The notes under the pieces: generated by a model
What the model was told of the DNA's origin: nothing
The model's database searches: none
The model's input: the letters and a program-made list of their open reading frames with translations, nothing else
Position numbers and translations under genes: made by a program
Shown: positions 27 to 64,000 of the stretch, piece by piece
How positions within the stretch are numbered: position 1 is the first letter of the stretch
Layout: each line of letters begins with the position of its first letter
Assembly (NCBI GenBank): GCA_963851265.1
Contig: CAWKNZ010000010.1
Coordinates: forward strand, 64,001 to 128,000
From: an uncultured Gemmatimonadales bacterium
GTDB lineage: Bacteria; Gemmatimonadota; Gemmatimonadetes; Gemmatimonadales; Gemmatimonadaceae
Length of the DNA stretch: 64,000 bases
Direction: 5' to 3'

Positions 27-1409
27 GTGGTCGCCGCGCTCACGCTGGTCGTGTTCTTCGTGCACGCGCCGCCATTCCCGCACGGCGTCGGCGAGTTCCT
101 CGCCATGCGCGTCACGATGCGCAACACGCTCGCCGTGGCGGTCGTCGCCGCGTGGGCGACGACCGTGCTCGGGCTCGTCGGCGCGTACGACCTCGCGCGT
201 GCGCCTAACGCGGCGGAGCTGTTCGCAAACACGCTCGCCGGGTGCGCGGTCGCCGCGCTCCCGGTGATCCTGCTCGTGCCCGACCGCGGCCGGTGGTTTC
301 CGCTCGCGCCCGGCCTGCTGTTCGCCGCCGGAACGGCGGCCGGCGTGCTCACGTGCCGCGCCGCGGCCTACGCCGCGCGCCGCGTCCGCCGCCCCGAGGT
401 GCGCGTCGTGATCGCCGGGACCGGGCCGCGCGCGCAGTCGCTCTGGACGCGGCTGCAGTCCGACCGCACCGTCGCGTATCAACTGCTCGCCGTCGCCGAC
501 ACGCCCGAGGCGCTGCTCGCGCGCCGCGACCTGCCCGGCGTCTTCGCCGACGCGCCCGGGGGCGTCGCCGGCGTGGCCGTCAGCCGGCTCGACGAGTACC
601 TCATGCACACCGTCGTCGACGAGGTGTTCGTCGCCCTGCCCCACCGGTCGCGCTTCGGCGAGGTCCACGACGTCCTGCGCAGCTGCGAGCGCGCGGGCGT
701 CCACGCGCACTACCTCACCGACGCCGTCGCGTCGACGATCGCGCGCCCCCGCCCGAGCAACTCGGGGGGCTACCCCACCGTGAGCCTGCACGTCGTGCCC
801 GACGGGTCCGCACTCGTCGTCAAGCGCGCGATCGACATCGCGGGCGCCACCGTCGGCCTCGTGCTGCTCGCGCCGGTGTTGCTCGCCGTGGCGGTCGCGG
901 TGCGGTGCACGAGCCGCGGGCCGGTGTTCTTCACGCAGGAGCGATACGGGTACCGCAAGCGCCGCTTCCGGATGATGAAGTTCCGCACGATGGTCGCCGA
1001 CGCCGAACGCCACCAGGCCGCGCTGGAGGCGCAGAACGAGGCCGCGGGCCCGGTGTTCAAGATCGCGCGCGACCCGCGCCTCACGCGCGTCGGCGCCTTC
1101 CTGCGCCGCTCCTCGCTCGACGAGCTCCCGCAGCTCTGGAACGTGCTGCGCGGCGAGATGTCGCTCGTCGGCCCGCGCCCGCTCCCGACCCGCGACGTGT
1201 CGCGCTTCGCCGAGCCGTGGCTCATGCGCCGCTTCAGCGTGCGCCCCGGGCTCACGTGCCTCTGGCAGATCAGCGGACGCAGCAACGTCGGCTTCGACGA
1301 GTGGGTCTCGCTCGACCTGCGCTACATCGACGAGTGGTCGATCGGGCTCGACCTGCGCATCCTGTTCCAGACGCTGCCCGCGGTGCTCAGCGGGCGGGGT
1401 GCCCGGTGA
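27..1409 (+). CDS. Priming sugar transferase (polyprenyl glycosylphosphotransferase, WcaJ/WbaP family); true start may lie upstream of the window
   Basis: N-terminal TM helices; C-terminal Bac_transf motifs KRAIDI, KFRTM, DPRLTRVGAFLRRSSLDELPQLWNVLRGEMSLVGPRP, PGLTCLWQISGRS, LDLRYI; frame open to the window edge. Confidence 0.93.
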   Translation: MVAALTLVVFFVHAPPFPHGVGEFLAMRVTMRNTLAVAVVAAWATTVLGLVGAYDLARAPNAAELFANTLAGCAVAALPVILLVPDRGRWFPLAPGLLFAAGTAAGVLTCRAAAYAARRVRRPEVRVVIAGTGPRAQSLWTRLQSDRTVAYQLLAVADTPEALLARRDLPGVFADAPGGVAGVAVSRLDEYLMHTVVDEVFVALPHRSRFGEVHDVLRSCERAGVHAHYLTDAVASTIARPRPSNSGGYPTVSLHVVPDGSALVVKRAIDIAGATVGLVLLAPVLLAVAVAVRCTSRGPVFFTQERYGYRKRRFRMMKFRTMVADAERHQAALEAQNEAAGPVFKIARDPRLTRVGAFLRRSSLDELPQLWNVLRGEMSLVGPRPLPTRDVSRFAEPWLMRRFSVRPGLTCLWQISGRSNVGFDEWVSLDLRYIDEWSIGLDLRILFQTLPAVLSGRGAR

Positions 1410-3238
1410 CTCGTCCGCCCGTTCCGGCGCGCGCCGCGCGCCTCGACACGCGCTTGGCCGAGCCCCCGACCCGGCCGGCACACGCGGGTCCCTATGGGCC
1501 GTACGCGCCGTCGTCCGCTCCGCGGTTAGGCCTGACCGCTTCCGACGACGCGCCACCCGCGCGCGCGCACCTGCTCACGTTCGCGCTCGAGGAGTACTTC
1601 AACAACTTCGACCGGCTCATCGACCGGTCGCACTGGTCGCGCTTCGAGCGGCGCGTCGAGCACGGCACGACCCGGGTGCTCGACCTGCTGGACGCGCACG
1701 GGCAGCGGGCCACGTTCTTCTGCCTCGGCTGGGTCGCCGAACATCTGCCCGAGCTGGTCGCGGAGATCGCGCGCCGCGGCCACGAGGTCGCGAGCAAGGG
1801 TTACGCGCAGCAGCCGCTCTCGGCGCTTACGCCGCCCACGCTGCGCGACGACCTCGCGCGCGCCCGCGATGCGATCGAGGCCGTGACGGGCGTTCGCGTG
1901 CTCGGCTACCGCGCGCCGGGGTGGCTCGGCGCGGACGACGTGTGGGCGCTCGACGTGCTCGCCGACGAGGGCTACGCCTACGACTCGAGCGTGAAACCGT
2001 TCCTGCGCGCGGCGCGCGGCGCCGCGGCCGGCCGGCACCCGACGCTGCTGCAGCGCCCGGCGGGCGCGCTCTGGGAGGTGCCGGTCTCGGCGGTCCGGGT
2101 CGGTGGGATGCTCGTGCCCGTGGGCGCCGGCAACTATTCGCGTCAGCTGCCGCGCTGGATGATGCGCGGCGTCATGGACCGCTGGGGGCGCGCTCACCAC
2201 TCGCCGTTCCTGATGTACTTCCACGCCTGGGAGTTCGACGCCGATCAGCCACAGATCAGTGCCGCGCCGTGGCTGCACCGCGCGCGGTTTTACCGCAACA
2301 TCGCGAAGACGCCGGCGATTCTCGCCGACTACCTCGCCCGCTACCGCTTCACGAGCGTCGCGCAGTACCTCGGCCTCGACGCCACGGCGCCGGCGCCGTC
2401 CGGCGCGCGCCGGCACGTGCTCGCCTCGGGCGTTCCGCACGGTCCCCGGCGGGAGCACGTCGCCGCGCCCACGGGCCCCGCGGTCGGCGTCTCGCTCGTC
2501 GTCCCGTGCTTCAACGAGGAGCGCACCCTGGCCTACCTCGCGAACACGCTCGAGAGCGTGCGCGCGTCGCTCGCCGGGCGCTACGCGCTCGAGACCGTGT
2601 TCGTCGACGACGGGAGCACCGACGGCACGGCGGAGGAGCTGGCCCGACGCTTCGGCGACCGCGCCGACTGCCGCATCGTGCACCACGGGGTGAACCGCGG
2701 CGTCGGGCAGGCGATCCTCACCGGCGCCGCGCGCGCGCGGTACGACGTCGTGGCGTCGATCGACTGCGACTGCACGTACGACCCGCACGAACTCGCGCGC
2801 ATGCTCCCGCTGCTCACCGACGGCGTGGACGTGGTGACGGGGTCGCCCTACCACCGCGACGGCGGGGTTCGCAATGTGCCGCGGTGGCGCCTCGGCCTGT
2901 CGCGCTCGGCGTCGGCGTGCTACCGCGTCGTGCTGCGCCAGAAGCTGCACACGTACACGAGCTGCTTCCGCGTCTACCGGCGCGGCGCGCTCGAAGGCCT
3001 AACGCTCGCGCACGGCGGGTTCCTCGGCGTGGCCGAAACGCTCGGCCGGCTCGACCTGGCGGGCGCGCGCATCGTCGAGTACCCGACCACGCTCCACGTG
3101 CGCGTGCTCGGCCGCTCGAAGATGAAGGTGGCGCGTACGGTCGGCGGCCACGTCGTGCTCCTCGCGGAACTGGTCGGGCTGCGCGCGCGCGCGGCGCTCG
3201 GCCGGACCCGCCGGGCGGCCTGGGCCGTCGTGCGGTGA
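1406..3238 (+). CDS. Fusion of a polysaccharide deacetylase-like domain (DUF3473/PEP-CTERM-locus type, degenerate) and a GT2 glycosyltransferase (Dpm1/ArnC-like)
   Basis: GTG overlaps the upstream TGA; ATFFCLGWVAE, GYRAP, YDSS, YFHAWEFD, then VVPCFNEE, FVDDGSTDGT, IDCDCTYDP. Confidence 0.85.
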   Translation: MTRPPVPARAARLDTRLAEPPTRPAHAGPYGPYAPSSAPRLGLTASDDAPPARAHLLTFALEEYFNNFDRLIDRSHWSRFERRVEHGTTRVLDLLDAHGQRATFFCLGWVAEHLPELVAEIARRGHEVASKGYAQQPLSALTPPTLRDDLARARDAIEAVTGVRVLGYRAPGWLGADDVWALDVLADEGYAYDSSVKPFLRAARGAAAGRHPTLLQRPAGALWEVPVSAVRVGGMLVPVGAGNYSRQLPRWMMRGVMDRWGRAHHSPFLMYFHAWEFDADQPQISAAPWLHRARFYRNIAKTPAILADYLARYRFTSVAQYLGLDATAPAPSGARRHVLASGVPHGPRREHVAAPTGPAVGVSLVVPCFNEERTLAYLANTLESVRASLAGRYALETVFVDDGSTDGTAEELARRFGDRADCRIVHHGVNRGVGQAILTGAARARYDVVASIDCDCTYDPHELARMLPLLTDGVDVVTGSPYHRDGGVRNVPRWRLGLSRSASACYRVVLRQKLHTYTSCFRVYRRGALEGLTLAHGGFLGVAETLGRLDLAGARIVEYPTTLHVRVLGRSKMKVARTVGGHVVLLAELVGLRARAALGRTRRAAWAVVR

Positions 3239-3284
3239 CCCGCCGGTGACCCGCGCCCGCGTTCCCCACCAACCCGTTGTCGCC

Positions 3285-3968
3285 ATGCCTCTCACGTCCT
3301 CCTTCCTGATCCCGACGCGCGCCACGCTCCGGCTGGCGCTGCTCGTTGCGGGACTTTCGACGGGCGCCGCGGCGTGCGCGGCCCAGTCGGCGTCCGTCGA
3401 CACGGCGCCGGCCGCCGCGCCCCGCGCCGTGTCGATGCGCCCCGTACAGCTGCACGCGGGCGACCTCGTGAAGCTGTACATGTGGCGCGAGCCCGACCTG
3501 TCGCGCGAGTACGAGGTGAACGGCGCGGGCGCGATCGACCTGCCCAAGGTCGGCGCGGTCTCGGTCGCCGGCGTCTCGCCCGACTCGCTGCAGCACATCC
3601 TCGAACAGCGCTACGCGAAGTACCTGCGTACCCCGACCATCGAGGTCACGATGCGGCGCCGCATCTCGGTGCTCGGCGCGGTGCGCAACCCGGGCGTCTA
3701 CCAGGTCGACCCCTACGTGACCGTGGCCGCCGCCCTCGCCCTCGCCGGCGGGACGACCCCGGAGGCCCGCACCGACGAGGTCCGCGTGCTGCGCGGAGAC
3801 CGGACGTTCCGCACGCGCGTGTCGACGCGCACCGTGATCGCCGACTCGCCCGTCGAATCGGGCGACCAGCTGTTCGTACCCGATCGCGGATGGGCGACCC
3901 GCAACATCGCGGTGATCAGCGCGGCCGTCTCGGCCGTCGGGATCATCGTCTTCGCCGCCCGTCGTTAG
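3285..3968 (+). CDS. Polysaccharide export protein (Wza/Poly_export plus SLBB)
   Basis: Signal/lipobox-like GAAAC; LHAGDLV, GAIDLPKVG, VLGAVRNPGVY, ALALAGG; lies before Wzc. Confidence 0.85.
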   Translation: MPLTSSFLIPTRATLRLALLVAGLSTGAAACAAQSASVDTAPAAAPRAVSMRPVQLHAGDLVKLYMWREPDLSREYEVNGAGAIDLPKVGAVSVAGVSPDSLQHILEQRYAKYLRTPTIEVTMRRRISVLGAVRNPGVYQVDPYVTVAAALALAGGTTPEARTDEVRVLRGDRTFRTRVSTRTVIADSPVESGDQLFVPDRGWATRNIAVISAAVSAVGIIVFAARR

Positions 3969-3991
3969 GCACCTCCGCGCCGCCGCCCACC

Positions 3992-6477: not shown

Positions 6478-7551
6478 ATGCGCACGACGACTAGCCACAC
6501 GAGCCAAACTCCCCCACGTGTCCTCGTCACGGGCGCCGGCGGGTTCATCGGCCACCACCTGACGAGCTACCTCAAGGGGCTCGGATACTGGGTGCGCGGC
6601 GTCGACGTGAAGGCGCCCGAGTACGAGGACTCGCGCGCCGACGAGTTCATGCTGCTCGACCTGCGTCGCTGGGAGAACTGCCTCGCCGCCACGGCCGGAG
6701 TGGACGAGGTGTACGCGCTCGCCGCTGACATGGGAGGCATGGGGTTCATCTCAAAGCACCACGCGGCGATCCTGCACAACAACATCCTGATCAGCACGCA
6801 CACGCTGGACGCGGCGCGGGAGAACGGGGTGAAGCGCTACCTCTACACGTCGTCGGCCTGCATCTATCCCGAATACCGGCAGCTCACGGCGGACGTCACG
6901 CCGCTGCGCGAGGAGGACGCGTATCCGGCGCAGCCGCAGGACGCGTACGGCTGGGAGAAGCTGGTGACCGAGCGCCTCTGCGCGCACTACAGCGAGGAGC
7001 ACGGCATCGCGACCCGCGTCGTCCGGTTCCACAACATCTTCGGCCCGTTAGGCACGTGGGACGGCGGACGCGAGAAGGCGCCGGCCGCGATGTGCCGCAA
7101 GGTCGCGCTCGCGAAGCTCACGGGGCGCCCGGAGATCGACATCTGGGGCGACGGCGAGCAGACGCGCTCGTTCTGCTACATCGACGACTGCGTCGAGGGC
7201 ATCTACCGCCTCATGCGCTCAGATTACGCGGAGCCGCTCAACCTCGGCCAGGACCGGCTCATCTCGATCAACCAGCTCGCCGACATGGTCGCCGCGGCGG
7301 CCGGCACGGTCATCGAGAAGCGCCACGTGCCCGGCCCTCAGGGGGTGCGCGGGCGCAACTCCGACAACGCGCGGCTCCGTGAGGTGCTCGGCTGGGAGCC
7401 GGTGATCTCGCTCGAAGACGGCGTCGCGCGCACGTACGCGTGGATTGAGGGCCAGGTCCGCGCGCGCACGGCCGACGTCGCTCCGGCCGTGGCGGCGCCC
7501 GCACACGGGCTGCGCGCGGTCCCATCTCGCGCGACGGCGATCACCGCGTGA
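6478..7551 (+). CDS. NAD-dependent epimerase, GDP-mannose 3,5-epimerase-like
   Basis: TGAGGFIG, LAADMGGMGFI, SSACIYPE, YGWEK, RFHNIFGP, GGREKAPAA, GVRGRNSDN, all characteristic of the GME subfamily. Confidence 0.88.
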   Translation: MRTTTSHTSQTPPRVLVTGAGGFIGHHLTSYLKGLGYWVRGVDVKAPEYEDSRADEFMLLDLRRWENCLAATAGVDEVYALAADMGGMGFISKHHAAILHNNILISTHTLDAARENGVKRYLYTSSACIYPEYRQLTADVTPLREEDAYPAQPQDAYGWEKLVTERLCAHYSEEHGIATRVVRFHNIFGPLGTWDGGREKAPAAMCRKVALAKLTGRPEIDIWGDGEQTRSFCYIDDCVEGIYRLMRSDYAEPLNLGQDRLISINQLADMVAAAAGTVIEKRHVPGPQGVRGRNSDNARLREVLGWEPVISLEDGVARTYAWIEGQVRARTADVAPAVAAPAHGLRAVPSRATAITA

Positions 7552-8378: not shown

Positions 8379-9781
8379 GCGCCGTCCCGGCGGAGAGTCT
8401 GCGGGCGACCGTGCTGCGGGGCGGGACGTACCTCGCGGTGCGTCAAGTCGCGACGCTCGGCATCCACCTCGTCGGCGTGCTCCTGCTGACGCGAATCATC
8501 GGGCCGCGCGCGTACGGTCTCTACGCGGCCGCGTTCGGCATCCACACCTACCTGTACTACATCACGCAGTGCGGGCTCGGGGTGTACCTCATCCGCCGCG
8601 AGGACGACGCGGGGGTCGCCGACTACCACCAGGCCTTCACCCTGTTCCTGCTCCTCGGCATCGGTGGCGCCCTCGCCGCCGAGCTCGCGGTCCCGCTCAT
8701 TCACTGGTGGACGCGGCTCGACGGCCTCACGCCGCTGGCCCGGACGATGTTCGTCGCGCTGCCGATCCAACTCACCGCCCTCACGGCGTCCGCCAAGCTG
8801 GAGCGCGCACTCGACTACCGCCGCGTGGCGATGTCGGAGCTGCTGGGCTACGTGGCCTTCTACGGCGTCGCGCTGCCGCTTGCCGTCGCCGGGCGCGGGC
8901 CGTGGGCCCCCGTCGCGGGGTTCTGGGCGCAACAACTCGTGCTTGCCGCGCTCTACTTCGGGAACGCGAGATATCGGCCCCGGTTCGTCTGGGATCGCGC
9001 GCGCATTCGGCCGATGCTGCGCTACGGCGTGGGGTACTCCGGCGCCACGTGGGTGTGGCAGCTTCGCGACCTCGTGAACGCGCTCGTCGTCGGCCGCTAC
9101 GCGGGCGCGGCGGCCGTCGGCTACGTGGCGTTCACCGTGCGGCTCGTTGACGGGCTGAGCTTCACGAAGACGGCAGCCTGGCGGCTCTCGCTCGCGGTGC
9201 TCGCGCGGCTCCAGCACGACCAGCGGCGGCTCACGGGCGCGCTGAGCGAAGGCATGCAGCTGCAGGTGCTCGCGGGCGGCCCGATGTTGGTCGCATTCGG
9301 GTTCGTCGCCCCGTTCGCCGTCGGCCGGTTCTTCGGCGGGCGCTGGGTCCCGGTACTCGGGATCTATCCGTACATCGCACTGGCGTACCTGACCAACGCG
9401 CTGTTCAACCTGCACTCCTCGGCGCTCTACGTCGTGCGGCGGACGTGGGACGTCGCGGCGTTCCACACCGCGCACGTCGCGCTGTTCGCTGGCGGCGCGC
9501 TCCTCCTCGTCCCGCGCTTCGGAATGGCCGGCTACGGGTGGGCCGAAATGGTCGCGTTAGGCAGCTACGCGGTGGTGCACGCGCGCGTCGCCCGAAACAT
9601 CGGCACGCCGAGCTACGGCGTGGCGTGGCCGTTGTGGCTCGCGTGGGCGACGCTCCTCTTCTGGCGCGAGCTCGGGTGGTGGTGCCTCGTCGGGCCGCTC
9701 ACGGCCGCCGTGTGGCCCGGAGCCGTCCGCCAGCTGCGAACCTACGTCACGAACGTCGCGGGGTTGATCTATGCGCGCTGA
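8375..9781 (+). CDS. Oligosaccharide flippase (Wzx family)
   Basis: About 12 hydrophobic segments; LLTRIIGPRAYGLY; GTG overlaps the upstream stop; locus context. Confidence 0.85.
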   Translation: MSAVPAESLRATVLRGGTYLAVRQVATLGIHLVGVLLLTRIIGPRAYGLYAAAFGIHTYLYYITQCGLGVYLIRREDDAGVADYHQAFTLFLLLGIGGALAAELAVPLIHWWTRLDGLTPLARTMFVALPIQLTALTASAKLERALDYRRVAMSELLGYVAFYGVALPLAVAGRGPWAPVAGFWAQQLVLAALYFGNARYRPRFVWDRARIRPMLRYGVGYSGATWVWQLRDLVNALVVGRYAGAAAVGYVAFTVRLVDGLSFTKTAAWRLSLAVLARLQHDQRRLTGALSEGMQLQVLAGGPMLVAFGFVAPFAVGRFFGGRWVPVLGIYPYIALAYLTNALFNLHSSALYVVRRTWDVAAFHTAHVALFAGGALLLVPRFGMAGYGWAEMVALGSYAVVHARVARNIGTPSYGVAWPLWLAWATLLFWRELGWWCLVGPLTAAVWPGAVRQLRTYVTNVAGLIYAR

Positions 9782-14042: not shown

Positions 14043-14159
14043 CATTAGGCCTAACGATCGAATGCCGTGCTGCGGCGCGGTCGGATCAACCGCACGGCCA
14101 GGACGCGCAATCCGACCCCGCGTCACGGCGCGTCGCGCGCGCGCGGTGTGGCTCGGCTG

Positions 14160-41523: not shown

Positions 41524-41667
41524 CGTCACTCCCTCAAGGAATCCGTTAGGCCACGTCTCATGTCGTGGCGGCGGCCCCGCCGGGCGGCGGGGCGCTGGGC
41601 GCGCGGCGCGAGCCCGGTGCGCGGGTGGTGCGGTACGGGTCCGGTCGCGGCGGCGGCGCGCGACGCG

Positions 41668-45413: not shown

Positions 45414-46171
45414 CGGCGGGCCAGTCGCCCGCGACCGCCGTGTACGTCGGGTGCGCGGGGTGGAGCATTCCTCGCGTGTCGCAGGGCGACTTCCCCGGCG
45501 ACGGCTCGCATCTCGAACGGTACGCCGCGCGCTTCCCCGGGGTCGAGATCAACTCGTCGTTCTACCGCCCACACCGACCGGCGACGTACGCGCGGTGGGG
45601 CGCGTCCGTGCCCGCTGCGTTCCGCTTCTCCGTCAAGTTGCCGCGCGCGATCACGCACGAGCGGCGACTCGTCGGGACCGAGCCGCTCCTGGACGGGTTC
45701 CTCGCCGACGCGTCGGCGCTCGGCACGCATCTCGGGTGCCTGTTGGTCCAGCTGCCGCCGAGCCTCGCGTTCGACGCGTCGGTGGCGGACGCGTTCATGG
45801 GCACACTCCGGGCGCGCCACGCGGGCCCGGTGGTCGTCGAGCCGCGGCATGCGAGCTGGTTCGTGCCGGCCGCCGACCGGGTGCTCGACGCGTGGTGCAT
45901 GGGTCGCGTGGCGGCCGACCCTGCCAGGGTGCCGCTGGCGGCCGAGCCGGGCGGCTGGCCGGACACCATCTACTACCGGCTGCACGGCTCGCCGCGCACG
46001 TACTACTCCTCGTACGACGAGGCCTACCTCGACCGGCTCGCCGAGCGGCTGATCGGCGAGCGCGCGGGGGCCGCGTGGTGCGTGTTCGACAACACCGCGC
46101 TCGGCGCGGCGACGCCTAACGCGCTCGCCCTGGTCGACCGGCTCGCCGCCGCGGCCACGCGCGGCGGGTGA
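45410..46171 (+). CDS. DUF72 family protein
   Basis: VGCAGW, VEINSSFY, FSVK, LVQLPPS, VEPRH.SW, YRLHG, FDNT. Confidence 0.92.
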   Translation: MTAGQSPATAVYVGCAGWSIPRVSQGDFPGDGSHLERYAARFPGVEINSSFYRPHRPATYARWGASVPAAFRFSVKLPRAITHERRLVGTEPLLDGFLADASALGTHLGCLLVQLPPSLAFDASVADAFMGTLRARHAGPVVVEPRHASWFVPAADRVLDAWCMGRVAADPARVPLAAEPGGWPDTIYYRLHGSPRTYYSSYDEAYLDRLAERLIGERAGAAWCVFDNTALGAATPNALALVDRLAAAATRGG

Positions 46172-49095: not shown

Positions 49096-49110
49096 CCCGG
49101 CCACGGCCTA

Positions 49111-49158
49111 ACGCGACGCGCCCCCCGCCGGACCGGTCCGGCGGGGGGCGCGTCGCGT
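49111..49158. terminator. Perfect 48-bp palindrome between convergent genes
   Basis: acgcgacgcgccccccgccggacc|ggtccggcggggggcgcgtcgcgt, two 24-bp arms with no spacer. Confidence 0.7.
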
Positions 49159-53326: not shown

Positions 53327-53452
53327 GCACGCTCCTGACGTGAGATTACCACCCGGCCGGCGTCCGGCGCCGCGGGCGCCCCCACGATACGTCGGGACGC
53401 CGGGGTGTCAAGCGACGCGTCCTCGGCGCGGCGCACGCCGCCCAGGGCCTAA

Positions 53453-53543
53453 CGCACCCGCGCGGCGCACCCGCGCGGCGCAACCGGGCGGCGCACCCGG
53501 GCGGCGTACCCGGGCGGCGTACCCGGGCGGCGTACCCGGGCGG
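53453..53543. repeat. Tandem repeat, 7 x 13 bp (consensus cgyacccgggcgg)
   Basis: Units read directly: cgcacccgcgcgg x2, cgcaaccgggcgg, cgcacccgggcgg, cgtacccgggcgg x3. Confidence 0.92.
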
Positions 53544-53929: not shown

Positions 53930-54050
53930 GGAGGTGTCGTTCGGCGCGCCGGACCGTCGCGGCGGGCCGCGGCACCGATTCTGCGCCCCGGTTCGCCATG
54001 CCCCCGCCCCGGACCCACCGCCCGGGCGCGCCCACACGCACGCCTAACTG

Positions 54051-55277
54051 ATGCCGCCGAGCGCCCCGCTCTTTCGCAGCTTCTTTCAGGCCGGATTCGA
54101 GTGCTCCACGCACCGGCTGCGCACGTCGCGCCGTCTCGACCTGGTCGCGTCCACGCAGCACGACGTGTTCGCCGGCTCCGACTACGCGCTCTGCGCGGCC
54201 GCGGGGCTGCGCACCGTGCGGGACGGGGTCCGCTGGCATCTCGCCGACCGCGGCGGCGCGCTCGACCTCTCGGCCGAGGTGCCGCGGGTCCGGGCCGCGC
54301 GCGACGCGGGGGTCGAGGTGATCTGGGACCTGTGCCATTACGGATGGCCCGACGACGTCGACGTGTTCGCGCCGGCGTTCGTGAACCGGTTCGCGCGGTT
54401 CGCGCGCGCGTTCGCCGCGATGGTCGCGAACGAGACCGACGAGGTCCCGTGGTACGCGCCCGTCAACGAGATCTCGTTTTTCGCGTGGGCCGGGGGCGAC
54501 GCGACGTACCTCAACCCGTTCCGCGGCGACGCCGGGCACGCGCTCAAGCGGCAGCTGGTGCGCGCGGCGGTGGCCGCGGTGCACGCCGTGCGCGACGTCG
54601 ACCGGCGCGCGCGTATCGTGCACACGGACCCCGTGTTCTGGGTCGTGCCGCACGCCGGACGGCCGGGCGACGCCGCGGACGCGGACGGGCACAACGTCGC
54701 CCAGTTCGAGGCGTGGGACATGCTCGCCGGGCGGCGCGAGCCGGAGTTAGGCGGCACCCCGGACGTGCTCGACGTCGTCGGCGTCAACTATTACGCCAAC
54801 AACCAGTGGGTGTGGGCAGGCCCGCTCGCCTTCCGCAACGAGGTGCTCGACGCGTCCGACGCGCGGTACCGGCCGTTCCGTGAGCTGGTCGCCGCGGTGT
54901 ACGGCCGATACGGGCGCCCGCTGTTCGTCGCCGAAACGGGGATCGAAGGCGAGGCGCGGCCGGCGTGGCTGCGCTACATGGCCGACGAGGTGCGCGCGGC
55001 CCAGCACGCGGGTGTACCGGTCGAGGGGCTGTGCGTGTACCCCGTGGTCGACCACCCGGGGTGGGACGACGACCGCCACTGCCCGAACGGGCTGTGGGGC
55101 TACCCCGACGCGGTTGGCGCACGCGAGGCGTACGCGCCGCTCCTCGAGGAGCTCGGACGGCAGCAGGACGCGCAGCGCGCGCTCCACGCGGATCCGGCGG
55201 CGCACCTGCAGCATGACGCACGCCGGACGGAGTCGCAGAGGGAGGCGCGGTCGCAGCTCGACGCGGCCCCGCGGTAG
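54051..55277 (+). CDS. GH1-like beta-glucosidase family protein
   Basis: AGFECSTH, WDLCHYGWP, APVNEISF, GVNYY..NQW, VAETG. Confidence 0.8.
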   Translation: MPPSAPLFRSFFQAGFECSTHRLRTSRRLDLVASTQHDVFAGSDYALCAAAGLRTVRDGVRWHLADRGGALDLSAEVPRVRAARDAGVEVIWDLCHYGWPDDVDVFAPAFVNRFARFARAFAAMVANETDEVPWYAPVNEISFFAWAGGDATYLNPFRGDAGHALKRQLVRAAVAAVHAVRDVDRRARIVHTDPVFWVVPHAGRPGDAADADGHNVAQFEAWDMLAGRREPELGGTPDVLDVVGVNYYANNQWVWAGPLAFRNEVLDASDARYRPFRELVAAVYGRYGRPLFVAETGIEGEARPAWLRYMADEVRAAQHAGVPVEGLCVYPVVDHPGWDDDRHCPNGLWGYPDAVGAREAYAPLLEELGRQQDAQRALHADPAAHLQHDARRTESQREARSQLDAAPR

Positions 55278-56489: not shown

Positions 56490-58859
56490 TTGACGTTTGA
56501 CCACGTTCGGACGCGGCTGGGCGGCCTCGTCGCGACACTCGCGTCGGCGGCGGCGCTCTCGGCGGCCCCGAGCGGCGCGCAGGCGCCCGCGGCGGTGCCG
56601 GCTGCCCAACGGCTCGACCCGCGCGTCGAGGCGCGCGTCGACTCGCTGCTGCGCGTGATGACGCTCGAGGAGAAGGTGGGCGAGATGACGCAGCTGACCG
56701 TGCAGGCGGTGTCGCGCGTGCACGGAACCGCCACCGTCTCCCAGCAGCTCGATTCGGCCAAACTGGAGGAGGCGATCGTGCGGCGGCACGTGGGGTCGCT
56801 GCTCAACGTGTGGGACGTCGCGCTCACGCCCGAGCAGTGGCGGCAGCTGACGACGACCGTACAGCGCGCCGCGGCGCGCTCGCGGCTCAAGATCCCGGTG
56901 ATCTACGGCATCGACGCGGTGCACGGCGAGCACTACATGCGCGGCGCCACGCTCTTTCCGCAGAACGTGGCGATGGCGGCGACGTTCAACCCCGACCTCG
57001 TGCGGCGCGAGCACGAGATCACGGCGTACGAGACGCGGGCGAGCGGGATCCCGTGGAACTTCGCCCCCGTGCTCGACGTCGGCCGCCAGCCGCTCTGGCC
57101 GCGCTTCTACGAAACGTTCGGCGAGGACCCGTACCTCGGCAGCGTGCTCGGCGCGGTCGCCGTGGAGGCCGAGCAGCGGGACCCGCGGCCGGCGCTCGCG
57201 CCGCTGTTAGGCGGTGCCGCGCGCACGGGCGCCCGGGGCGTGGGCGGGCGCGTGTTCGTGACCGCGTCGGCGAAGCACTTCCTCGGCTACAGCATGCCGC
57301 TCAGCGGCAAGGATCGCACGACGGCGTGGATCCCCGAGCGCGAGCTGCGCGAGATCTTCCTGCCGCCGTTCCGGAGCGCGATCAACGCCGGCATCCGCAC
57401 GGTGATGGTCAACTCGGGCGACATCAACGGCGTGCCGGTGCACGCGAGCCACGAGATCCTCACCGACCTGCTGCGCAACGAGCTCGGCTTCACCGGGGTC
57501 GCGGTGAGCGACTGGGAGGACGTCCGGAAGCTCGTCACGTTCCACCGCACGGCGGCCAACGACAAGGAGGCCGTGCGCCAGGCGATCATGGCCGGGATCG
57601 ACATGAGCATGGTCCCGTACGACTACTCGTTCACCGACGACCTGCTCGCGCTCGTGCGCGAGGGGGCGGTGCCGCAGGCGCGGATCGACGAGAGCGTGCG
57701 GCGCATCCTGCGGCTCAAGTTCGAACTCGGACTGTTCGAGAACCCGAACCCCGACCCGGCGATGCTCGCCAACGTCGGCACGACCGCGTTCCAGCCGGCG
57801 AGCCGCGAGGCGGCGAACCAGGCGGTGACGCTGCTGAAGAACGCGGGCGGCTCCGGGGGCGCGCCGATGCTGCCGCTGCCGAAGACCGCGCGCGTGCTCG
57901 TGACGGGCCCCGCGGCCACGTCGCTCCCCGCGCAATACGGCGGGTGGTCGTACACCTGGCAGGGGCGCGACACGGCGCTCTACCCGAAGGACGTGAAGAC
58001 GCTGCTCGACGCCGTGCGCGACCGGGTGGGCGCGGGACGCGTGACGTACGTGCCGGGCGCGACGTTCGATGCCCCCGGCGACGTGGCCGCGGCGGTGGCC
58101 GCCGCGCGCGACGTGGACGTGGTCGTCGTCGCGTTGGGCGAGAACTCCTCGGCCGAACAGCCAGGCAACATCGACGACCTCATGATGCCCGAAGGGCAGC
58201 TGCAGCTGGCGCGCGCGCTCGAGGCGACGGGCAAGCCGGTGGTCGTGGCGCTGTTCGAGGGGCGGCCGCGCGTGATCCGGCCGCTCGTCGACTCCGCGCG
58301 CGCGATCGTGACGGGCTACGAGACGGGCCCGTACGGCGGCGAGGCGGTCGCGGGCGTGCTGTTCGGCGACGTGAACCCGAGCGGGCGCCTGCCGTTCACG
58401 TACCCGCGGTACACGGGCGCGATCGAGCACTACGACCGCGCGGAGCCCGCGAACTCGACGGCGGGCGACTCGACCACGGGCTACCACCCCGAGTTCGAGT
58501 TCGGGTACGGCCTCTCGTACACGACGTACGCGTACAGCGACCTGCACGTGGACCGGGCGCGCGCGGGGGCGCGCGACACCGTGACGGTCACGGTGACCGT
58601 CGCCAACACCGGCGCGCGCGCCGGGATGGAGGCCGTGCCGCTCTACTCGCGGCAGCTCTACGCGAGCGTGAACCCGCCGGTCAAACGCCTGCGTGACTTC
58701 ACGAAGATCACCCTCGCGCCGGGCGAACGCCGGACGGTGACGTTCCGCCTTCCCGTCCAGCGCCTCGCGTTCGTCGGTCGCGACAACCATCCGGTGGTCG
58801 AGCCGGGCGACTTCGACCTCATGGTCGGCGGGCTCACCACGCGACTCACGGTGCAATGA
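56490..58859 (+). CDS. Glycoside hydrolase family 3 beta-glucosidase (BglX-like)
   Basis: MTLEEKVG, DAVHG, AKHF, VSDW, LLKN, NPSGRLP, FGYGLSYT, Fn3-like tail; TTG start after GGAGA (alternative 56433). Confidence 0.93.
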   Translation: MTFDHVRTRLGGLVATLASAAALSAAPSGAQAPAAVPAAQRLDPRVEARVDSLLRVMTLEEKVGEMTQLTVQAVSRVHGTATVSQQLDSAKLEEAIVRRHVGSLLNVWDVALTPEQWRQLTTTVQRAAARSRLKIPVIYGIDAVHGEHYMRGATLFPQNVAMAATFNPDLVRREHEITAYETRASGIPWNFAPVLDVGRQPLWPRFYETFGEDPYLGSVLGAVAVEAEQRDPRPALAPLLGGAARTGARGVGGRVFVTASAKHFLGYSMPLSGKDRTTAWIPERELREIFLPPFRSAINAGIRTVMVNSGDINGVPVHASHEILTDLLRNELGFTGVAVSDWEDVRKLVTFHRTAANDKEAVRQAIMAGIDMSMVPYDYSFTDDLLALVREGAVPQARIDESVRRILRLKFELGLFENPNPDPAMLANVGTTAFQPASREAANQAVTLLKNAGGSGGAPMLPLPKTARVLVTGPAATSLPAQYGGWSYTWQGRDTALYPKDVKTLLDAVRDRVGAGRVTYVPGATFDAPGDVAAAVAAARDVDVVVVALGENSSAEQPGNIDDLMMPEGQLQLARALEATGKPVVVALFEGRPRVIRPLVDSARAIVTGYETGPYGGEAVAGVLFGDVNPSGRLPFTYPRYTGAIEHYDRAEPANSTAGDSTTGYHPEFEFGYGLSYTTYAYSDLHVDRARAGARDTVTVTVTVANTGARAGMEAVPLYSRQLYASVNPPVKRLRDFTKITLAPGERRTVTFRLPVQRLAFVGRDNHPVVEPGDFDLMVGGLTTRLTVQ

Positions 58860-60414
58860 CCAACACGAACGGGCTGGACGCGGGCCGCCGCGCGTTCCTC
58901 ACGACTGGCGCGGCGGCTGCGGCGCGGGGCTACCGATCCTCGCGCTGCCGGGTCTCGCGCGCGCGGCGACGTGGGCCGGCGCGCGCGACCTCGCGCGCGA
59001 GGTCGCGCGTGCGCCGGTGCCCTCTCCGGCCGGCGCGATCCGGGTGCACCAGACGGCGGGATCGCGACGCCACGCGACGCTGCCCGACATCGCGTGGCGT
59101 GCGGCGGCCGAGAGCCCTGGGCCGGGTGATGTGGTCGTCGCCGCGGAACGCCGGCGCCAGGAGGTGCTGGGCTTCGGCGCGGCCTTCACCGACGCGGCGT
59201 GCTACTTGTTCAGCCGCCTCACGCCGAGCGCCCGCGCCGCCCTGTTTCACGAGCTGTATCACCCGTCGGAGATGGCGCTCGGCGTCGGGCGAACGTGCGT
59301 CGGGTCGAGCGACTACTCGACGGTCGCGTATAGTTACGACGAGGGCCCAACCCCCGACCCCGGGCTGACGAGGTTCTCCATCGCGCACGACCGCCAGTGG
59401 ATCCTCCCGATGCTGCGCGAGGTGCGGGCCGTGAATCCCGACCTCTTCCTGCTCGCGTCGCCGTGGAGTCCGCCGGCGTGGATGAAGGACAACGGCTCGC
59501 TGTTAGGCGGTACGATCCGCCGCCGGTACCTCGGCGCGTACGCCGACTATTTCACGAGGTACCTGCAGGCGTACGCGGCGGAGGGCGTGCCCGTCGGCGC
59601 GGTGACGACGCAGAACGAGCTCGACACCGACCAGGACGGCGGCATGCCGGCGTGCACGTGGCCGCAGGAGGCAGAGATCCAGTTCGTCGGGCAGAACCTG
59701 GGCCCGGCGCTGGCGCGGGCGGGGCTCACGACGAAGATCTGGCTCATCGACCACAACTACACGCTGTGGGGGCGCGCGCTCTCGGAGTTCGACGACGAGG
59801 CGGTGCGCCGCTACGCCGACGGCGTCGCGTGGCACGGCTACGTCGGCGACCCGGCGTCGATGTCACGCGTGCACGACGCCTACCCGGACAAACACGCCTA
59901 CTGGACCGAAGGCGGACCCGACGTCACGAGTCCGCGCTACGCGACGGACTGGTCGTCGTGGGCGGCCCAGTTCACCGACATCCTGCGCAACTGGTCGCGC
60001 TGCATCATCGCGTGGAATTACGCGCTGGACGAGAAGGGGAAGCCGAACATCGGGCCCTTCTCGTGCGGCGGGCTGGTGACGATCGACAGTCGCACGCAGG
60101 CGCTCACGCGGAGCGGCATGTACTGGGCGTTCGCGCACTTCTCGCGACACGTGCGGCGCGGCGCGCACGTCATCGAATCGACCGGGGGAACGCCGCCCGG
60201 GGGCGGGACGGCGCCGCCGCCTGCGACGGGCGGCGGCGCGCGGCCCACGGCGGAGTTCGGGCACGTAGCCTTCGAGAATCCCGACGGCAGCCGCGTGGTC
60301 GTGCTCGCGAACGTCGGCGCGCAACCCCGCACGCAGCGCGTCGTGCTCGGCAGCAGCGTGGCCGAAGTCGCGCTGCCGGCCGACTCGGTGACGACGCTCG
60401 AATGGAACGCGTGA
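58856..60414 (+). pseudogene. GH30 glycoside hydrolase with an apparent frameshift in the Tat signal region (about 58915-58925); catalytic ORF 59017..60414 intact
   Basis: GFGAAFTD, ASPWSPPAWMK, TQNE, DHN, AWHGY, WTEG, WNYALD; the ATG/RRAFL leader is in a different frame from the enzyme. Confidence 0.72.
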
Positions 60415-60425: not shown

Positions 60426-61145
60426 ATGCGCACGTGGGCACGCGTTCGGCGCGTGGCTCTCCTGATCTCCGCCGGCGCGGCGCTCGGTGCCTGTGCGAGC
60501 GCACCACCGCACGGCTCGTCGGGCGTGCCCTCGCGGGGCGCCGCGGACCGGTGGCGACCGCTGCTCGCCGGACAGTCGTTCGACGCATGGCGCGGATACC
60601 AGGGCGCGCCCGTGCCACCGGGGTGGACGATCGCCGACGGCGTGCTCGCGCGGCGCGTGAGCACCGGCGACCTCGTCACGCGCGACGAGTTCGGCGACTT
60701 CGAACTGGAGTGGGAGTGGAAGCTCGGCGTCGGCGGGGACGCGGGCGTGTTCTACCGCGGAACCGAGGGCGATCCGCGCATCTTCTTCAGCGCGGTCGAA
60801 TATCAGTTGGAGGACGACGCGCACCCGCTCGACGGTCCGAGCCGCCTGGCAGCGGCCGGCGCGGTGTACGGGCTGTACCCGGTGCGCCCCGGGGTGGTGC
60901 GGCCGGCCGGCGAGTGGAACGCGTCGCGCATCGTCGCGCGCGGCGCGCACGTCGAGCACTGGCTGAACGGCGAGAAGGTCGCCGAGTACGAGGCCGGGAG
61001 TGCCGACTGGGACGCGCGGGTGCAAGGGAGCAAGTTCTCGCGCTGGCCCAACTTCGGACGGGCGCGGCGCGGGCACATCGCGATCCAGGGCGACCACGCG
61101 GGCGAGTTCGCGGTCCGCGGGATGCGGATCCGCGAACTCCGTTAG
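60426..61145 (+). CDS. DUF1080 (3-keto-disaccharide hydrolase family) lipoprotein
   Basis: LGAC; GDFELEWEWK, GVFYR, EYQL.DD, GEWN, EHWLNG, GHIAIQGDH. Confidence 0.88.
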   Translation: MRTWARVRRVALLISAGAALGACASAPPHGSSGVPSRGAADRWRPLLAGQSFDAWRGYQGAPVPPGWTIADGVLARRVSTGDLVTRDEFGDFELEWEWKLGVGGDAGVFYRGTEGDPRIFFSAVEYQLEDDAHPLDGPSRLAAAGAVYGLYPVRPGVVRPAGEWNASRIVARGAHVEHWLNGEKVAEYEAGSADWDARVQGSKFSRWPNFGRARRGHIAIQGDHAGEFAVRGMRIRELR

Positions 61146-61163
61146 GCGCGCCTTATCGGGCGT

Positions 61164-63519: not shown

Positions 63520-63544
63520 CCCCCTCCGGGACTCCCGCCGTTGA

Positions 63545-64000
63545 TCATGCGACGGCCGCGCCGTGCGCGGCCCCGCCCTGGGCGGGCAGCGCCCGCGCGG
63601 CCCGCCGCCGTGCCGCGCCCGCGACGCCGGCCGCGAGCAGCAGCGCGAACCCGAGCGCGAGCCCTGCCGCCGCGCGCGGACTCGCTTGGTGCTGGAATGT
63701 GACCAGAAAGACGACGAGCACGAGCAGCACCGTCGGCGCCTCGTTGAAGAGCCGGAACTGTTGCGACGTCATCGGCGACGTGCCGGCCGCGAGGCGCGCG
63801 GCGCAGCGGACGCAGGCCACGTGGTACGCGGCGACGCCGGCGACGAGGACCAGCTTGGCCTGCAGCCATCCCGCGCCTAACAGCCCGGGGCGTCCGGCGA
63901 GCATGCCGACCGCCGCCGCGACGGCGAGCACGCACGCGGGGCGCATGATCGCCCGCTCCAGCAGGCGCTCCATGCGCGCGAACTGCGCGTGCAGGACCGC
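63545..64000 (-). CDS. hemJ: HemJ-like protoporphyrinogen oxidase (UPF0093), 5' end outside the window
   Basis: MERLL..IM.PA, WLQAKL, YH, FRLFNEAPT. Confidence 0.78.
   Translation of the reverse strand, partial: AVLHAQFARMERLLERAIMRPACVLAVAAAVGMLAGRPGLLGAGWLQAKLVLVAGVAAYHVACVRCAARLAAGTSPMTSQQFRLFNEAPTVLLVLVVFLVTFQHQASPRAAAGLALGFALLLAAGVAGAARRRAARALPAQGGAAHGAAVA

What the first reader, a model, noticed from the sequence alone, without database searches (positions are those of the whole stretch)
203..63881. Highly iterated heptamer GCCTAAC/GTTAGGC across the window, forcing rare codons: candidate uptake-sequence-like or genome-marking system
Seen: 29 exact copies by hand count. 13 are GCCTAAC (203, 2997, 14049, 19493, 35405, 39867, 44543, 46114, 49106, 51139, 53447, 54042, 63875). 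16 are GTTAGGC (1525, 3964, 7047, 9556, 16078, 23398, 28838, 31044, 36815, 41545, 45138, 50388, 54746, 57206, 59502, 61141). 20 of the 29 extend to GCCTAACG. My rough mononucleotide expectation at about 75% GC is about 5, and TA avoidance would lower it. I saw only a handful of TTAG/CTAA tetramers outside the motif (e.g. near 10972, 16274, 18502, 21851, 35583). It is frame-independent: 14 TTA-GGC (Leu-Gly), 5 CCT-AAC (Pro-Asn), 1 CTA, 1 GTT-AGG, 2 TAG stops and 6 intergenic. Established: DNA uptake sequences (Neisseria, Pasteurellaceae) and cyanobacterial HIP1 show this dispersed, codon-overriding pattern, while Chi and KOPS are strand-polarised. Inference: a DNA-level signal, such as an uptake sequence, a nucleoid or partition protein site, or a methylation/repair-maintained site. 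I know of no description of this motif.
Basis: partly seen in the sequence, partly recalled or inferred. Interest (0 to 1): 0.85.

Follow-up and report, generated by a model that had tools for sequence, protein, structure and literature searches.

The report
Genome-wide copies of integron core heptamer
A seven-letter DNA word, the same word that marks the ends of this soil bacterium's mobile gene cassettes, is scattered about 1,760 times through its ordinary genes against codon preference and is kept in place across species, so it looks like an undescribed DNA-level signal, most likely one that favours exchange of DNA between relatives.

Summary
The window holds 29 GCCTAAC/GTTAGGC sites against 2.5 expected. 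The genome holds 1762, and it is the most over-represented 7-mer. It is 19-fold above synonymous-codon shuffles.

It acts at the DNA level:
- It forces TTA in 17% of [..G]-Leu-GGC contexts, against 0.2% when one flanking base differs.
- It has no replication polarity.
- Sites avoid each other below about 1 kb.
- Sites persist at orthologous positions 5-10 times better than other rare codons.

It bounds the attC sites of this lineage's own integrons, including an array 66 kb beyond the window. At most 27 of the 1762 sites are attC-borne.

Enrichment is bimodal among Gemmatimonadaceae genera and was not seen outside that family. It does not track integrase, type IV pili or ComEC.

Best reading, at about 40%: a USS/DUS/HIP1-like kin-DNA tag spread by a recombination-coupled drive. 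The protein that reads it is unknown. The cultured Gemmatirosa kalamazoonensis carries it, so it can be tested.

The parts
203..209 (+). heptamer site, G|CCT|AAC (Pro-Asn) in a + gene
1525..1531 (-). heptamer site, G|TTA|GGC (Leu-Gly) in a + gene
2997..3003 (+). heptamer site, GC|CTA|AC in a + gene
3964..3970 (-). heptamer site holding the TAG stop of the polysaccharide-export gene (3246-3968)
7047..7053 (-). heptamer site, G|TTA|GGC
9556..9562 (-). heptamer site, G|TTA|GGC
14049..14055 (+). heptamer site, intergenic, 11 bases from the c-di-GMP riboswitch at 13941-14038
16078..16084 (-). heptamer site, G|TTA|GGC
19493..19499 (+). heptamer site, G|TTA|GGC in a - gene
23398..23404 (-). heptamer site, G|TTA|GGC
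28838..28844 (-). heptamer site, G|TTA|GGC
31044..31050 (-). heptamer site, G|TTA|GGC
35405..35411 (+). heptamer site, G|CCT|AAC
36815..36821 (-). heptamer site, G|TTA|GGC
39867..39873 (+). heptamer site, intergenic
41545..41551 (-). heptamer site, intergenic
44543..44549 (+). heptamer site, G|CCT|AAC
45138..45144 (-). heptamer site, GTT|AGG|C (Val-Arg)
46114..46120 (+). heptamer site, G|CCT|AAC
49106..49112 (+). heptamer site, intergenic
50388..50394 (-). heptamer site, G|CCT|AAC in a - gene
51139..51145 (+). heptamer site, G|TTA|GGC in a - gene
53447..53453 (+). heptamer site, intergenic
54042..54048 (+). heptamer site, intergenic
54746..54752 (-). heptamer site, G|TTA|GGC
57206..57212 (-). 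heptamer site, G|TTA|GGC
59502..59508 (-). heptamer site, G|TTA|GGC
61141..61147 (-). heptamer site holding the TAG stop of the gene 60525-61145
63875..63881 (+). heptamer site, G|TTA|GGC in a - gene

Best explanation
GCCTAAC (fuller form [C/T/G]GCCTAAC[G>A]) is a double-stranded-DNA signal read in either orientation. It is installed wherever the protein code allows and is then actively kept. Its sequence is that of the core site (R box) of this lineage's integron attC sites. At least 98% of copies, however, are single heptamers inside ordinary chromosomal genes, not attC sites. The most likely mechanism is inferred, not shown. It is a transmission bias coupled to homologous recombination between relatives, as proposed for the uptake sequences of Pasteurellaceae and Neisseriaceae and now discussed for cyanobacterial HIP1. 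DNA fragments carrying the word would be taken up or integrated preferentially, so new copies spread and old ones are restored. One copy per fragment would be enough. A plausible origin for the specificity is the attC core site, which was already the commonest repeated word in these genomes. The reader protein is not identified.
For: What is shown:
- Excess: 1762 sites against 96-160 expected and against 67.7 in synonymous shuffles.
- Context: TTA fills 991 of 5756 [..G]-Leu-GGC contexts. It fills 4 of 2354 when the preceding base is C and 8 of 1513 when the next codon is GGG. GCC-TAA-C ends 123 genes, against 127 for GCC-TGA-C.
- The same flank preferences hold in 208 fully intergenic sites and in relatives G001 and G004.
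- No polarity. The correlation with GC skew is rho -0.06. The Leu-Gly-type to Pro-Asn-type ratio is 510:141 in + genes and 505:138 in - genes, and 178:44 against 34:8 in co- and counter-oriented genes. Orientations are mixed in G113, G060, G004 and G001.
- Short-range repulsion. Gaps of 200 bp or less number 46, against 136 +/- 11 expected. Gaps of 500 bp or less number 193, against 318 +/- 13.
- Maintenance. At conserved Leu-Gly positions, P(motif in relative | motif in G000) is 0.68 and 0.67, against 0.08-0.09 otherwise. Most other rare codons persist at only 3-16%, against 53-56% for TTA.
- Continuing gain. G004 has 93 and G001 has 105 lineage-specific sites in 242 and 190 kb of alignment.
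- Occupancy rises with gene GC3, from 8.6% to 25.8% across deciles. TTA elsewhere falls from 0.70% to 0.10%. This fits accumulation with residence time or recombination.
- The same word occurs at 63-75% GC: G012 at 62.8% GC has 400 sites in 273 kb.
- Megaplasmids of cultured G. kalamazoonensis carry it, with 236 sites in 250 kb against 8.4 expected.
- Type IV pilus genes, ComEC, DprA and a ComEA-like protein are present in G000.
Against: - No uptake or transformation data exist for these bacteria. My search for 'Gemmatimonadetes' with 'natural transformation' gave nothing relevant.
- ComEC (31/31), PilM (40/40) and the one pilin tested (40/40) occur equally in motif-poor relatives. No receptor is identified and presence of the machinery discriminates nothing.
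- The word is shorter (7-8 bp) than known uptake sequences.
- That it matches the universal integron consensus is very unlikely for an arbitrary uptake word (32 of 16,384 heptamers). The model therefore needs the extra, untested assumption that the specificity was taken from attC sites.
- The largest motif-free stretch (45 kb, C1:182876-227962) holds core genes (mnmG, parA, parB, mnmE), not foreign DNA. The model does not predict this.
- One-mismatch variants are barely enriched, so recognition would have to be sharp.
Confidence: 0.4

Rival explanations
1. The dispersed heptamers are working sites of the integron integrase (IntI) or a relative. They would be isolated R boxes that bind IntI, serving as genomic landing sites for cassettes (attG-like) or as decoys that soak up a costly integrase.
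For: - The word matches RYYYAAC/GTTRRRY exactly (passages in PMC3053210 and PMC12901181).
- The eighth base (G) matches the base next to the R box in this lineage's attC sites.
- In G012 both GCCTAAC (400) and ACCTAAC (75) are enriched, that is R at position 1.
- G000 has its own integron: 17 of its 18 attC-profile hits lie at C10:193.7-215 kb and C6:0.9-2.3 kb, beside intI.
- IntI is reported to use non-classical genomic attG sites (Loot 2024, seen only as cited in PMC12901181).
Against: - IntI above the family cut-off occurs in 13 of 21 motif-rich and 15 of 20 motif-poor panel genomes.
- intI is split by a 2.1-kb insert in G000. In G001 and G012 only fragments with stops or frame changes are seen.
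- Motif-poor genomes of this order carry arrays with the same R boxes yet no dispersal.
- G000's own attC sites use varied R boxes: GCCTAAC 9, GCCGAAC 7 and others, among 22 sites. Those variants are not enriched genome-wide.
- 17 of the 18 attC-profile hits in G000 lie in the array, so there is no sign of cassettes landed at dispersed sites.
- Recombination inside coding sequence would be harmful.
- MAG incompleteness weakens the absence calls.
Confidence: 0.2
2. A methylation- or repair-driven conversion bias (very-short-patch-like, as discussed for HIP1) turns near-matches into the heptamer.
For: - HIP1 is linked to methyltransferases (PMC4390886, abstract seen in the listing).
- The transition neighbour GCCCAAC (TTG-GGC) is the commonest alternative at orthologous sites and is raised 2-3 fold in context.
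- An Eco57I/MmeI-type methyltransferase exists in G000.
Against: - PF00145, PF03852 (Vsr) and PF01555 were not found in G000, which is 94% complete.
- The Eco57I-type gene has orthologs in 30 of 31 relatives, motif-poor ones included.
- The KBS708 SMRT methylome lists RGATCY, ATGCAC and CCAGN7TCA only. m5C is not excluded.
- A repair bias does not explain the repulsion between neighbouring sites.
- Most gains need two substitutions, from CTC-GGC.
Confidence: 0.1
3. A Chi-like signal for an AddAB-type helicase-nuclease that protects or activates recombination of self DNA after breakage or entry.
For: - Two adjacent PD-(D/E)XK nuclease-domain genes of AddAB/AdnAB type lie at C3:244.5-249 kb.
- The density of 1 per 2.6 kb is like that of Chi. 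This comparison is from recall.
- A donor-DNA advantage would also act as a drive.
Against: - No orientation bias beyond that imposed by coding.
- RecC was found in only 4 of 41 panel genomes, without relation to the motif.
- Replication direction could only be approximated, because GC skew is flat.
Confidence: 0.1
4. A binding site of a lineage-specific nucleoid or chromosome-organising protein, kept by selection on chromosome structure.
For: - Sharp 7-8 bp specificity of monomer-footprint size.
- Regular short-range spacing.
- Positional conservation.
- Thin or empty parAB/origin-side regions in G000 and G001.
Against: - Selection per site would be minute for about 1,800-7,800 sites, yet it overrides codon bias.
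- Density varies 10-fold between related genomes.
- Megaplasmids are as dense as chromosomes.
- The origin-side gap is not conserved in G004 or G012.
- This reading gives no reason for the rise with GC3.
Confidence: 0.1

Closest known systems
DNA uptake sequences: USS of Pasteurellaceae and DUS of Neisseriaceae
   Same: Thousands of copies in both orientations. Present inside genes in whichever frame tolerates them and somewhat denser between genes (15.8% of sites in 11% of the DNA). DUS are reported as 34% inside coding sequence (PMC11893778 passage). Shared by related species, stable at orthologous positions, restricted to one family, and found alongside type IV pilus and ComEC machinery.
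   Different: Only 7-8 bp. No uptake bias has been shown and no receptor is known. The machinery is also present in relatives without the motif. Enrichment is patchy even within genera: in g53 there are 3896 and 4141 copies in two genomes against 66 in a third. The word is identical to an integron recombination core site.
HIP1 (GCGATCGC) of cyanobacteria
   Same: A hyper-abundant, codon-overriding short word that is conserved in position and quasi-regularly spaced. Its function is long unknown and is now being linked to gene transfer and transformation. Sources are abstracts seen in the listing only: PMC5861425, PMC13756078 and bioRxiv 10.1101/2024.09.10.611283.
   Different: HIP1 is a palindrome containing sites of two known methyltransferases. 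This word is asymmetric, no cognate methyltransferase was found, and it is not among the m6A motifs of KBS708.
Integron attC core sites (R''/R' boxes, RYYYAAC/GTTRRRY) and genomic attG sites
   Same: Letter-for-letter an instance of the consensus. It is the box actually used by attC sites in G000, in G. kalamazoonensis plasmid 1, and in G021 and G023.
   Different: The dispersed copies lack the partner box at 57-141 bp, the palindrome and the cassette context. At most 27 of 1762 lie in the array. Enrichment does not follow integrase presence.
Chi and KOPS/AIMS
   Same: Short, over-represented chromosomal words read by DNA-processing machines.
   Different: Those are strand-polarised with replication. 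This word is not.
NTS/dRS3 repeats read by Ssn nucleases in Neisseria
   Same: An abundant genomic word that modulates natural transformation (PMC11893778, abstract and passages).
   Different: NTS is about 30 bp, palindromic and almost never inside genes (2%). Here about 74% of sites lie wholly inside called genes.

Membership tests
DNA uptake sequence (USS/DUS) | Genome-wide hyper-representation beyond composition and codon usage | tested here: met
   1762 against 96-160 expected. 1294 against 67.7 in synonymous shuffles.
DNA uptake sequence (USS/DUS) | Both orientations, no replication polarity | tested here: met
   877 + and 885 -. Orientation is explained by coding alone. Replication direction was only approximated.
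DNA uptake sequence (USS/DUS) | Shared with related species and stable at orthologous positions | tested here: met
   Retention is 0.67-0.68, against 0.08-0.09 background. Most other rare codons persist at 3-16%.
DNA uptake sequence (USS/DUS) | Competence machinery present | tested here: met
   ComEC, DprA, a ComEA-like protein, PilB/T/C/M and 9 prepilin motifs. ComEC and PilM are also present in the motif-poor relatives searched.
DNA uptake sequence (USS/DUS) | Cognate sequence-specific receptor that co-varies with the motif | tested here: inconclusive
   Only one pilin was tested (135 aa). It has full-length orthologs in 40 of 40 genomes, rich and poor. The other eight pilin-motif genes were not tested.
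DNA uptake sequence (USS/DUS) | Preferential uptake or transformation by motif-bearing DNA | not testable with these tools
   Needs experiments. The cultured strain KBS708 carries the motif.
Integron attC site | Inverse core and core boxes 57-141 bp apart around an imperfect palindrome, at cassette ends | tested here: not met
   For the dispersed sites: an attC profile finds 18 hits in G000, 17 of them in the array. 13 heptamers lie inside hits and 27 lie in the array region, out of 1762. None is in the window.
Integron attC site | Box sequence fits RYYYAAC/GTTRRRY | tested here: met
   GCCTAAC and GTTAGGC fit letter for letter. The consensus comes from PMC3053210 and PMC12901181.
IntI secondary/attG site | Integrase-dependent cassette insertion at the site | not testable with these tools
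   No solitary attC-profile hit next to a dispersed site. Integrase presence is not associated with enrichment.
Chi / KOPS | Strand bias co-oriented with replication | tested here: not met
HIP1-type iterated palindrome | Palindromic word containing methyltransferase sites | tested here: not met
   The word is asymmetric. PF00145, PF01555 and PF03852 were not found. It is absent from the KBS708 m6A methylome.
REP/MITE or other longer repeat | Conserved sequence beyond the core | tested here: not met
   No information beyond positions -1 and +7.

The most novel reading that the evidence does not exclude
A subset of Gemmatimonadaceae has a DNA-acquisition bias, at uptake or integration, whose specificity is the integron attC core site. 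This would be a system tuned to the ends of gene cassettes. As a by-product or as self-recognition, it would have driven thousands of copies of that core site into the bacteria's own housekeeping genes. That would tie natural transformation mechanistically to the integron cassette pool. It would also be the first uptake-sequence-type system outside Proteobacteria.
Probability: 0.2. Interest if true: 0.9.

Novelty: new variant of a known kind. Interest (0 to 1): 0.78.

Why it matters
Hyper-abundant, codon-overriding DNA words are rare, and each known case (USS, DUS, HIP1, Chi) has exposed a DNA-handling machine. This one has three notable features:
- It lies in a barely studied, soil-dominant phylum.
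- It switches on and off between and even within genera, which offers natural contrasts for finding the protein that reads it.
- It is the same word as the recombination core site of the resident integrons, a link I did not find in print.

If the link is mechanistic, it bears on how integron cassettes move between cells, and perhaps on how attC-bounded cassettes arise, which is a long-standing open question. A cultured strain with a complete genome and a SMRT methylome carries the motif, so uptake, pull-down and deletion experiments are possible now.

In practice the word also marks native as opposed to recently acquired DNA in these genomes, and it will confuse attC finders that rely on core sites.

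Tried and rejected
- Polarity from place lists. The lists looked like long same-strand runs in G113, G060, G150 and G004. Fetching the DNA showed mixed orientations, so the lists are simply ordered by strand.
- Horizontally acquired island as the cause of the 45-kb motif-free gap. The gap holds mnmG, parA, parB and mnmE. The gap is not conserved in G004 or G012, and the region is only thinner in G001.
- Eco57I/MmeI-type methyltransferase as the determinant. Orthologs occur in 30 of 31 relatives, with identity tracking phylogeny rather than the motif.
- Integrase as the determinant. It is not associated with enrichment.
- ComEC, PilM, a 135-aa pilin and RecC as determinants. The first three are universal in the genomes searched and RecC is nearly absent.
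- An alternative 'dialect' in a motif-poor relative. In G006 (400 kb sampled) only codon-driven k-mers stand out.
- Ungapped stem search for attC sites. It found nothing. A profile built from 18 KBS708 attC sites worked.
- Taxonomy through AraA neighbours.
- Maximum-order Markov ranking hides the motif, because its sub-words are themselves dominated by it. Low-order models and codon shuffles were used instead.
- Records CP007127, CP007128 and CP007131 (the chromosome and the 21-kb element of KBS708) are not in the collections. Whether the putative phage lacks the motif is therefore unknown.
- Not attempted: structure prediction, sequencing-run look-ups and whole-proteome phyletic profiling.

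Full report
**Observation.** Dinucleotide-preserving shuffles give 2.47 +/- 1.57, with a maximum of 7 in 100. The window is C10:64001-128000 of a 4.60-Mb, 12-contig, roughly 73% G+C assembly that is 94% complete. Its genes are ordinary chromosomal ones: an exopolysaccharide cluster, molybdenum-cofactor genes and glycoside hydrolases.

**Genome-wide statistics.** There are 1762 sites, one per 2.6 kb, with 877 on + and 885 on -.
- Low-order Markov models expect 96-160, and the word is the top 7-mer by z-score.
- 1762 of 1794 GCCTAA are followed by C, and 71% of all CTAA tetramers lie in the motif.
- None of the 21 one-mismatch variants approaches the motif's excess. The highest is GCCCAAC, at 1393 against 558-631 expected.
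- Shuffling synonymous codons within genes keeps the TTA and CCT codons that the motif itself contributes, yet leaves only 52-76 sites against 1294 observed.
- The logo adds two partial positions. Position -1 is C 54%, T 22%, G 19%, A 5%. Position +7 is G 79%, A 14%. Nothing is conserved beyond them.
- The same holds in 208 fully intergenic sites, so this is not a fragment of a longer repeat.

**It is a DNA-level word.** Contexts of the 1762 sites are as follows:

| Context | Sites |
|---|---|
| G\|TTA\|GGC | 991 |
| G\|CCT\|AAC | 203 |
| GC\|CTA\|AC | 76 |
| GTT\|AGG\|C | 24 |
| Other frames | 15 |
| Straddling gene ends | 174 |
| Intergenic | 279 |

Intergenic sites are 15.8% of the total in 11% of the DNA. 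TTA makes up 17.2% of Leu codons in the context [..G]-Leu-GGC (991 of 5756). It makes up 0.17% when the preceding base is C (4 of 2354) and 0.5% when the Gly codon is GGG (8 of 1513). TTA is 8.0% of Leu before Gly and 0.24% elsewhere. 123 of 436 TAA stops and 83 of 745 TAG stops sit in the motif. These figures rest on my own gene calls and some stops may be miscalled.

**Orientation.** Motif orientation does not follow GC skew (rho -0.06, 92 bins). The skew is almost flat in this genome. Orientation does follow gene orientation, and coding explains that fully. The ratio of Leu-Gly-type to Pro-Asn-type sites is 510:141 in + genes and 505:138 in - genes. In regions of strong gene-strand bias it is 178:44 in co-oriented and 34:8 in counter-oriented genes. 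Apparent same-strand runs in the place lists were an artefact of the listing. The fetched DNA of G113, G060, G004 and G001 shows mixed orientations. Chi- and KOPS-type readings are therefore not supported, with the caveat that replication direction was only approximated.

**Spacing.** Sites avoid each other. Gaps of 200 bp or less number 46, against 136 +/- 11 expected. Gaps of 500 bp or less number 193, against 318 +/- 13. The expectation comes from 300 random placements among the real Leu-Gly, Pro-Asn and other opportunities, with minima of 109 and 282 (simple exponential model).

**Evolutionary behaviour.**
- Against 242 kb of G004 and 190 kb of G001 (same genus, about 80% DNA identity), 42 and 30 sites are shared. 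50 and 42 are G000-only, and 93 and 105 are relative-only.
- At conserved Leu-Gly dipeptides, the chance that the relative has the motif is 0.68 and 0.67 when G000 has it, and 0.08-0.09 when it does not (odds ratios 24 and 20).
- Synonymous sites are saturated. Most other rare codons recur at 3-16%, whereas TTA recurs at 53-56%.
- Sites are therefore both gained continually and actively retained. A neutral mutational hotspot is excluded.
- The usual alternatives at orthologous positions are CTC-GGC and TTG-GGC.
- Occupancy of [..G]-Leu-GGC by TTA rises from 8.6% in the lowest GC3 decile of genes to 25.8% in the highest. TTA elsewhere falls from 0.70% to 0.10% (rho 0.33).
- An A+T-rich rare-codon word is thus commonest in the most GC-extreme, most 'native' genes. 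That is expected if it accumulates with residence time or recombination. The link between GC3 and recombination is an interpretation from the biased-gene-conversion literature, which I recall and did not check.

**Distribution.**
- All five genomes of the genus are enriched (977-3304 copies). One other genus, represented by G012 at 62.8% G+C, has 7758. Most relatives have 8-100, fewer than a reversed-word control.
- I sampled 151 genomes of 68 genera of the family, using the 8-mer against its reversed control. The distribution is bimodal. By my hand count of the table, about 39 genomes in about 18 genera exceed the control 3-fold or more, by up to 40-fold. Most others lie below it.
- Genus g53 holds two genomes with about 4000 copies and one with 66.
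- None of 92 sampled genomes outside the family exceeds the control.
- These tallies include unpublished genomes G011, G047, G093, G204 and G231. No claim depends on them individually.
- A motif-poor relative, G006 (400 kb sampled), shows no alternative hyper-word.
I can only say it is a Gemmatimonadaceae member. Several genes are 66-84% identical to G. kalamazoonensis plasmid segments.
- That cultured type strain carries the motif, with 236 sites in five 50-kb stretches of its two megaplasmids against 8.4 expected.

**The integron link.** In one of those stretches (plasmid 1, 800-850 kb), 19 same-strand elements of about 97 bp lie 0.45-3 kb apart. Each begins with GCCTAAC and is an imperfect palindrome. 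In most the far end is GTTAGGC or a near variant. This is an integron cassette array.
- The heptamer and its complement are exact instances of the attC inverse-core and core consensus RYYYAAC and GTTRRRY (PMC3053210 and PMC12901181, passages read).
- A profile built from 18 of these sites finds 17 attC sites in G000 at C10:193.7-215 kb and C6:0.9-2.3 kb, plus one hit elsewhere. They lie next to an intI gene whose last catalytic segment is separated from the rest by a roughly 2.1-kb insert.
- The array lies 66 kb beyond the window on the same contig.
- Arrays in another family of the order (G021, G023) use the same boxes. In motif-poor genomes such arrays account for much of the little GCCTAAC there is.
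- In G000 only 13 heptamers lie inside attC hits and 27 lie in the whole array region, out of 1762. None is in the window.
- Earlier notes of this scan also report many Gemmatimonadota integrons. None mentions the dispersal.

- IntI above the NCBIfam cut-off is found in 13 of 21 motif-rich and 15 of 20 motif-poor panel genomes. G001 and G012 show only broken pieces.
- G000's own attC sites use varied boxes: GCCTAAC 9, GCCGAAC 7 and others, among 22 sites. Those variants are not enriched genome-wide.
- The dispersed word is therefore defined more sharply than attC usage.
- Absences in metagenome-assembled genomes are weak evidence, because arrays break assemblies.

**Other candidate machines.**
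- ComEC is found in 31 of 31 relatives, PilM in 40 of 40, and a 135-aa pilin in 40 of 40.
- RecC is found in 4 of 41. An AddAB-like pair is present in G000.
- No C5 methyltransferase, Vsr or N4/N6 methyltransferase family was found in G000.
- An Eco57I/MmeI-type methyltransferase with an SNF2 helicase neighbour is conserved in 30 of 31 relatives regardless of the motif.
- The SMRT methylome of KBS708 lists m6A at RGATCY, ATGCAC and CCAGN7TCA only (PMC3974934, whole text).

**Interpretation.** The following are shown:
- a sharply defined, orientation-free DNA word;
- installed opportunistically and kept over long times;
- self-spacing at short range;
- accumulating in native DNA on all replicons;
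- switched on or off between lineages;
- identical to the attC core site.

The mechanism is inferred. A per-site benefit strong enough to beat codon bias at thousands of sites is most simply a transmission bias. In the uptake-sequence model, fragments with the word are preferentially acquired and recombined. One copy per fragment suffices, which would explain the spacing, and copies accumulate with recombination, which would explain the GC3 trend. I put this at about 0.4. The identity with the attC core is too unlikely to be chance (32 of 16,384 heptamers fit the consensus). I suggest the specificity was recruited from the commonest pre-existing repeat. The bolder version is that the system is tuned to cassette ends (0.2). 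Rivals are working IntI sites (0.2), a methylation or repair bias (0.1), a Chi-like signal (0.1) and a nucleoid-protein site (0.1).

**Literature.**
- Searches for the letters of the motif returned only primers and DtxR boxes.
- Searches on uptake sequences beyond the two classical families, Gemmatimonadota with transformation or with integrons, the consensus words, and 'uptake sequence' with attC and integron gave no description of this phenomenon.
- The HIP1 papers were seen as listings and abstracts only.
- Supplements were not consulted.

Noticed in passing
G000 C10:193,784-214,570 and C6:926-6,044 (outside the window, same contig, 66 kb downstream): A chromosomal integron. 17 co-oriented attC sites of about 96 bp run off the end of contig C10 and the start of C6. 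An intI gene follows, whose C-terminal catalytic segment lies about 2.1 kb from the rest. A 529-aa ORF with no Pfam match lies between the two parts, so the integrase is probably disrupted.
   Followed up: partly
G000 C1:182,876-227,962 and C1:2,107-17,073: The largest motif-free stretch of the genome (45 kb, about 17 sites expected) covers mnmG, parA, parB and mnmE. A second 15-kb gap covers dnaA. The parB region is also thin in G001 (33 sites in 120 kb), but not in G012 and only mildly in G004. This is unexplained.
   Followed up: partly
window 13941-14038 (-) and 18524-18623 (-): Two c-di-GMP-I riboswitch aptamers, one of the GGC variant, score above Rfam gathering thresholds. The second lies upstream of a ricin-lectin/beta-helix protein gene (16761-18455, -).
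   Followed up: no
L206 = NZ_CP007129.1:800,001-850,000 (G. kalamazoonensis KBS708 plasmid 1): A cassette array with at least 19 co-oriented attC sites sits on a 1.1-Mb megaplasmid. PLSDB carries no annotation for this record.
   Followed up: partly
G000 C7:579,720-585,511 (L173:3720-9511): An 1141-aa Eco57I/MmeI-type methyltransferase lies beside a 759-aa SNF2-family helicase. The methyltransferase has orthologs in 30 of 31 genomes of the order, with identity tracking phylogeny. That is unusual stability for a restriction-modification-like gene.
   Followed up: partly
G114 against G061 and G151 (genus g53); G031 against G094 and G139 (genus g23): Within-genus on/off contrasts in motif abundance (66 against about 4000 copies of the 8-mer; 173 against 858-940). 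These are the best material for finding the determinant by comparative genomics.
   Followed up: no
whole genome G000: Under a maximum-order Markov model the top 7-mers are AGGCGCT, AAGCGCT, AGCCGCT, AGCGTCT and AGCGACT, each about 2-2.7 times expected. All share AGC and GCT ends. The cause was not examined.
   Followed up: no
G000 C7:764,666-767,819 (L234:9666-12819): Three short ORFs carry pieces of a type I restriction R subunit (HSDR_N, SWI2/SNF2 and C-terminal domains). This looks like a fragmented hsdR, next to the pilB-pilT-pilC genes.
   Followed up: no
G000 attC sites, L242/L243/L241: 7 of 22 attC sites use GCCGAAC/GTTCGGC-type boxes, which depart from the RYYYAAC/GTTRRRY consensus at the fourth position.
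   Followed up: no
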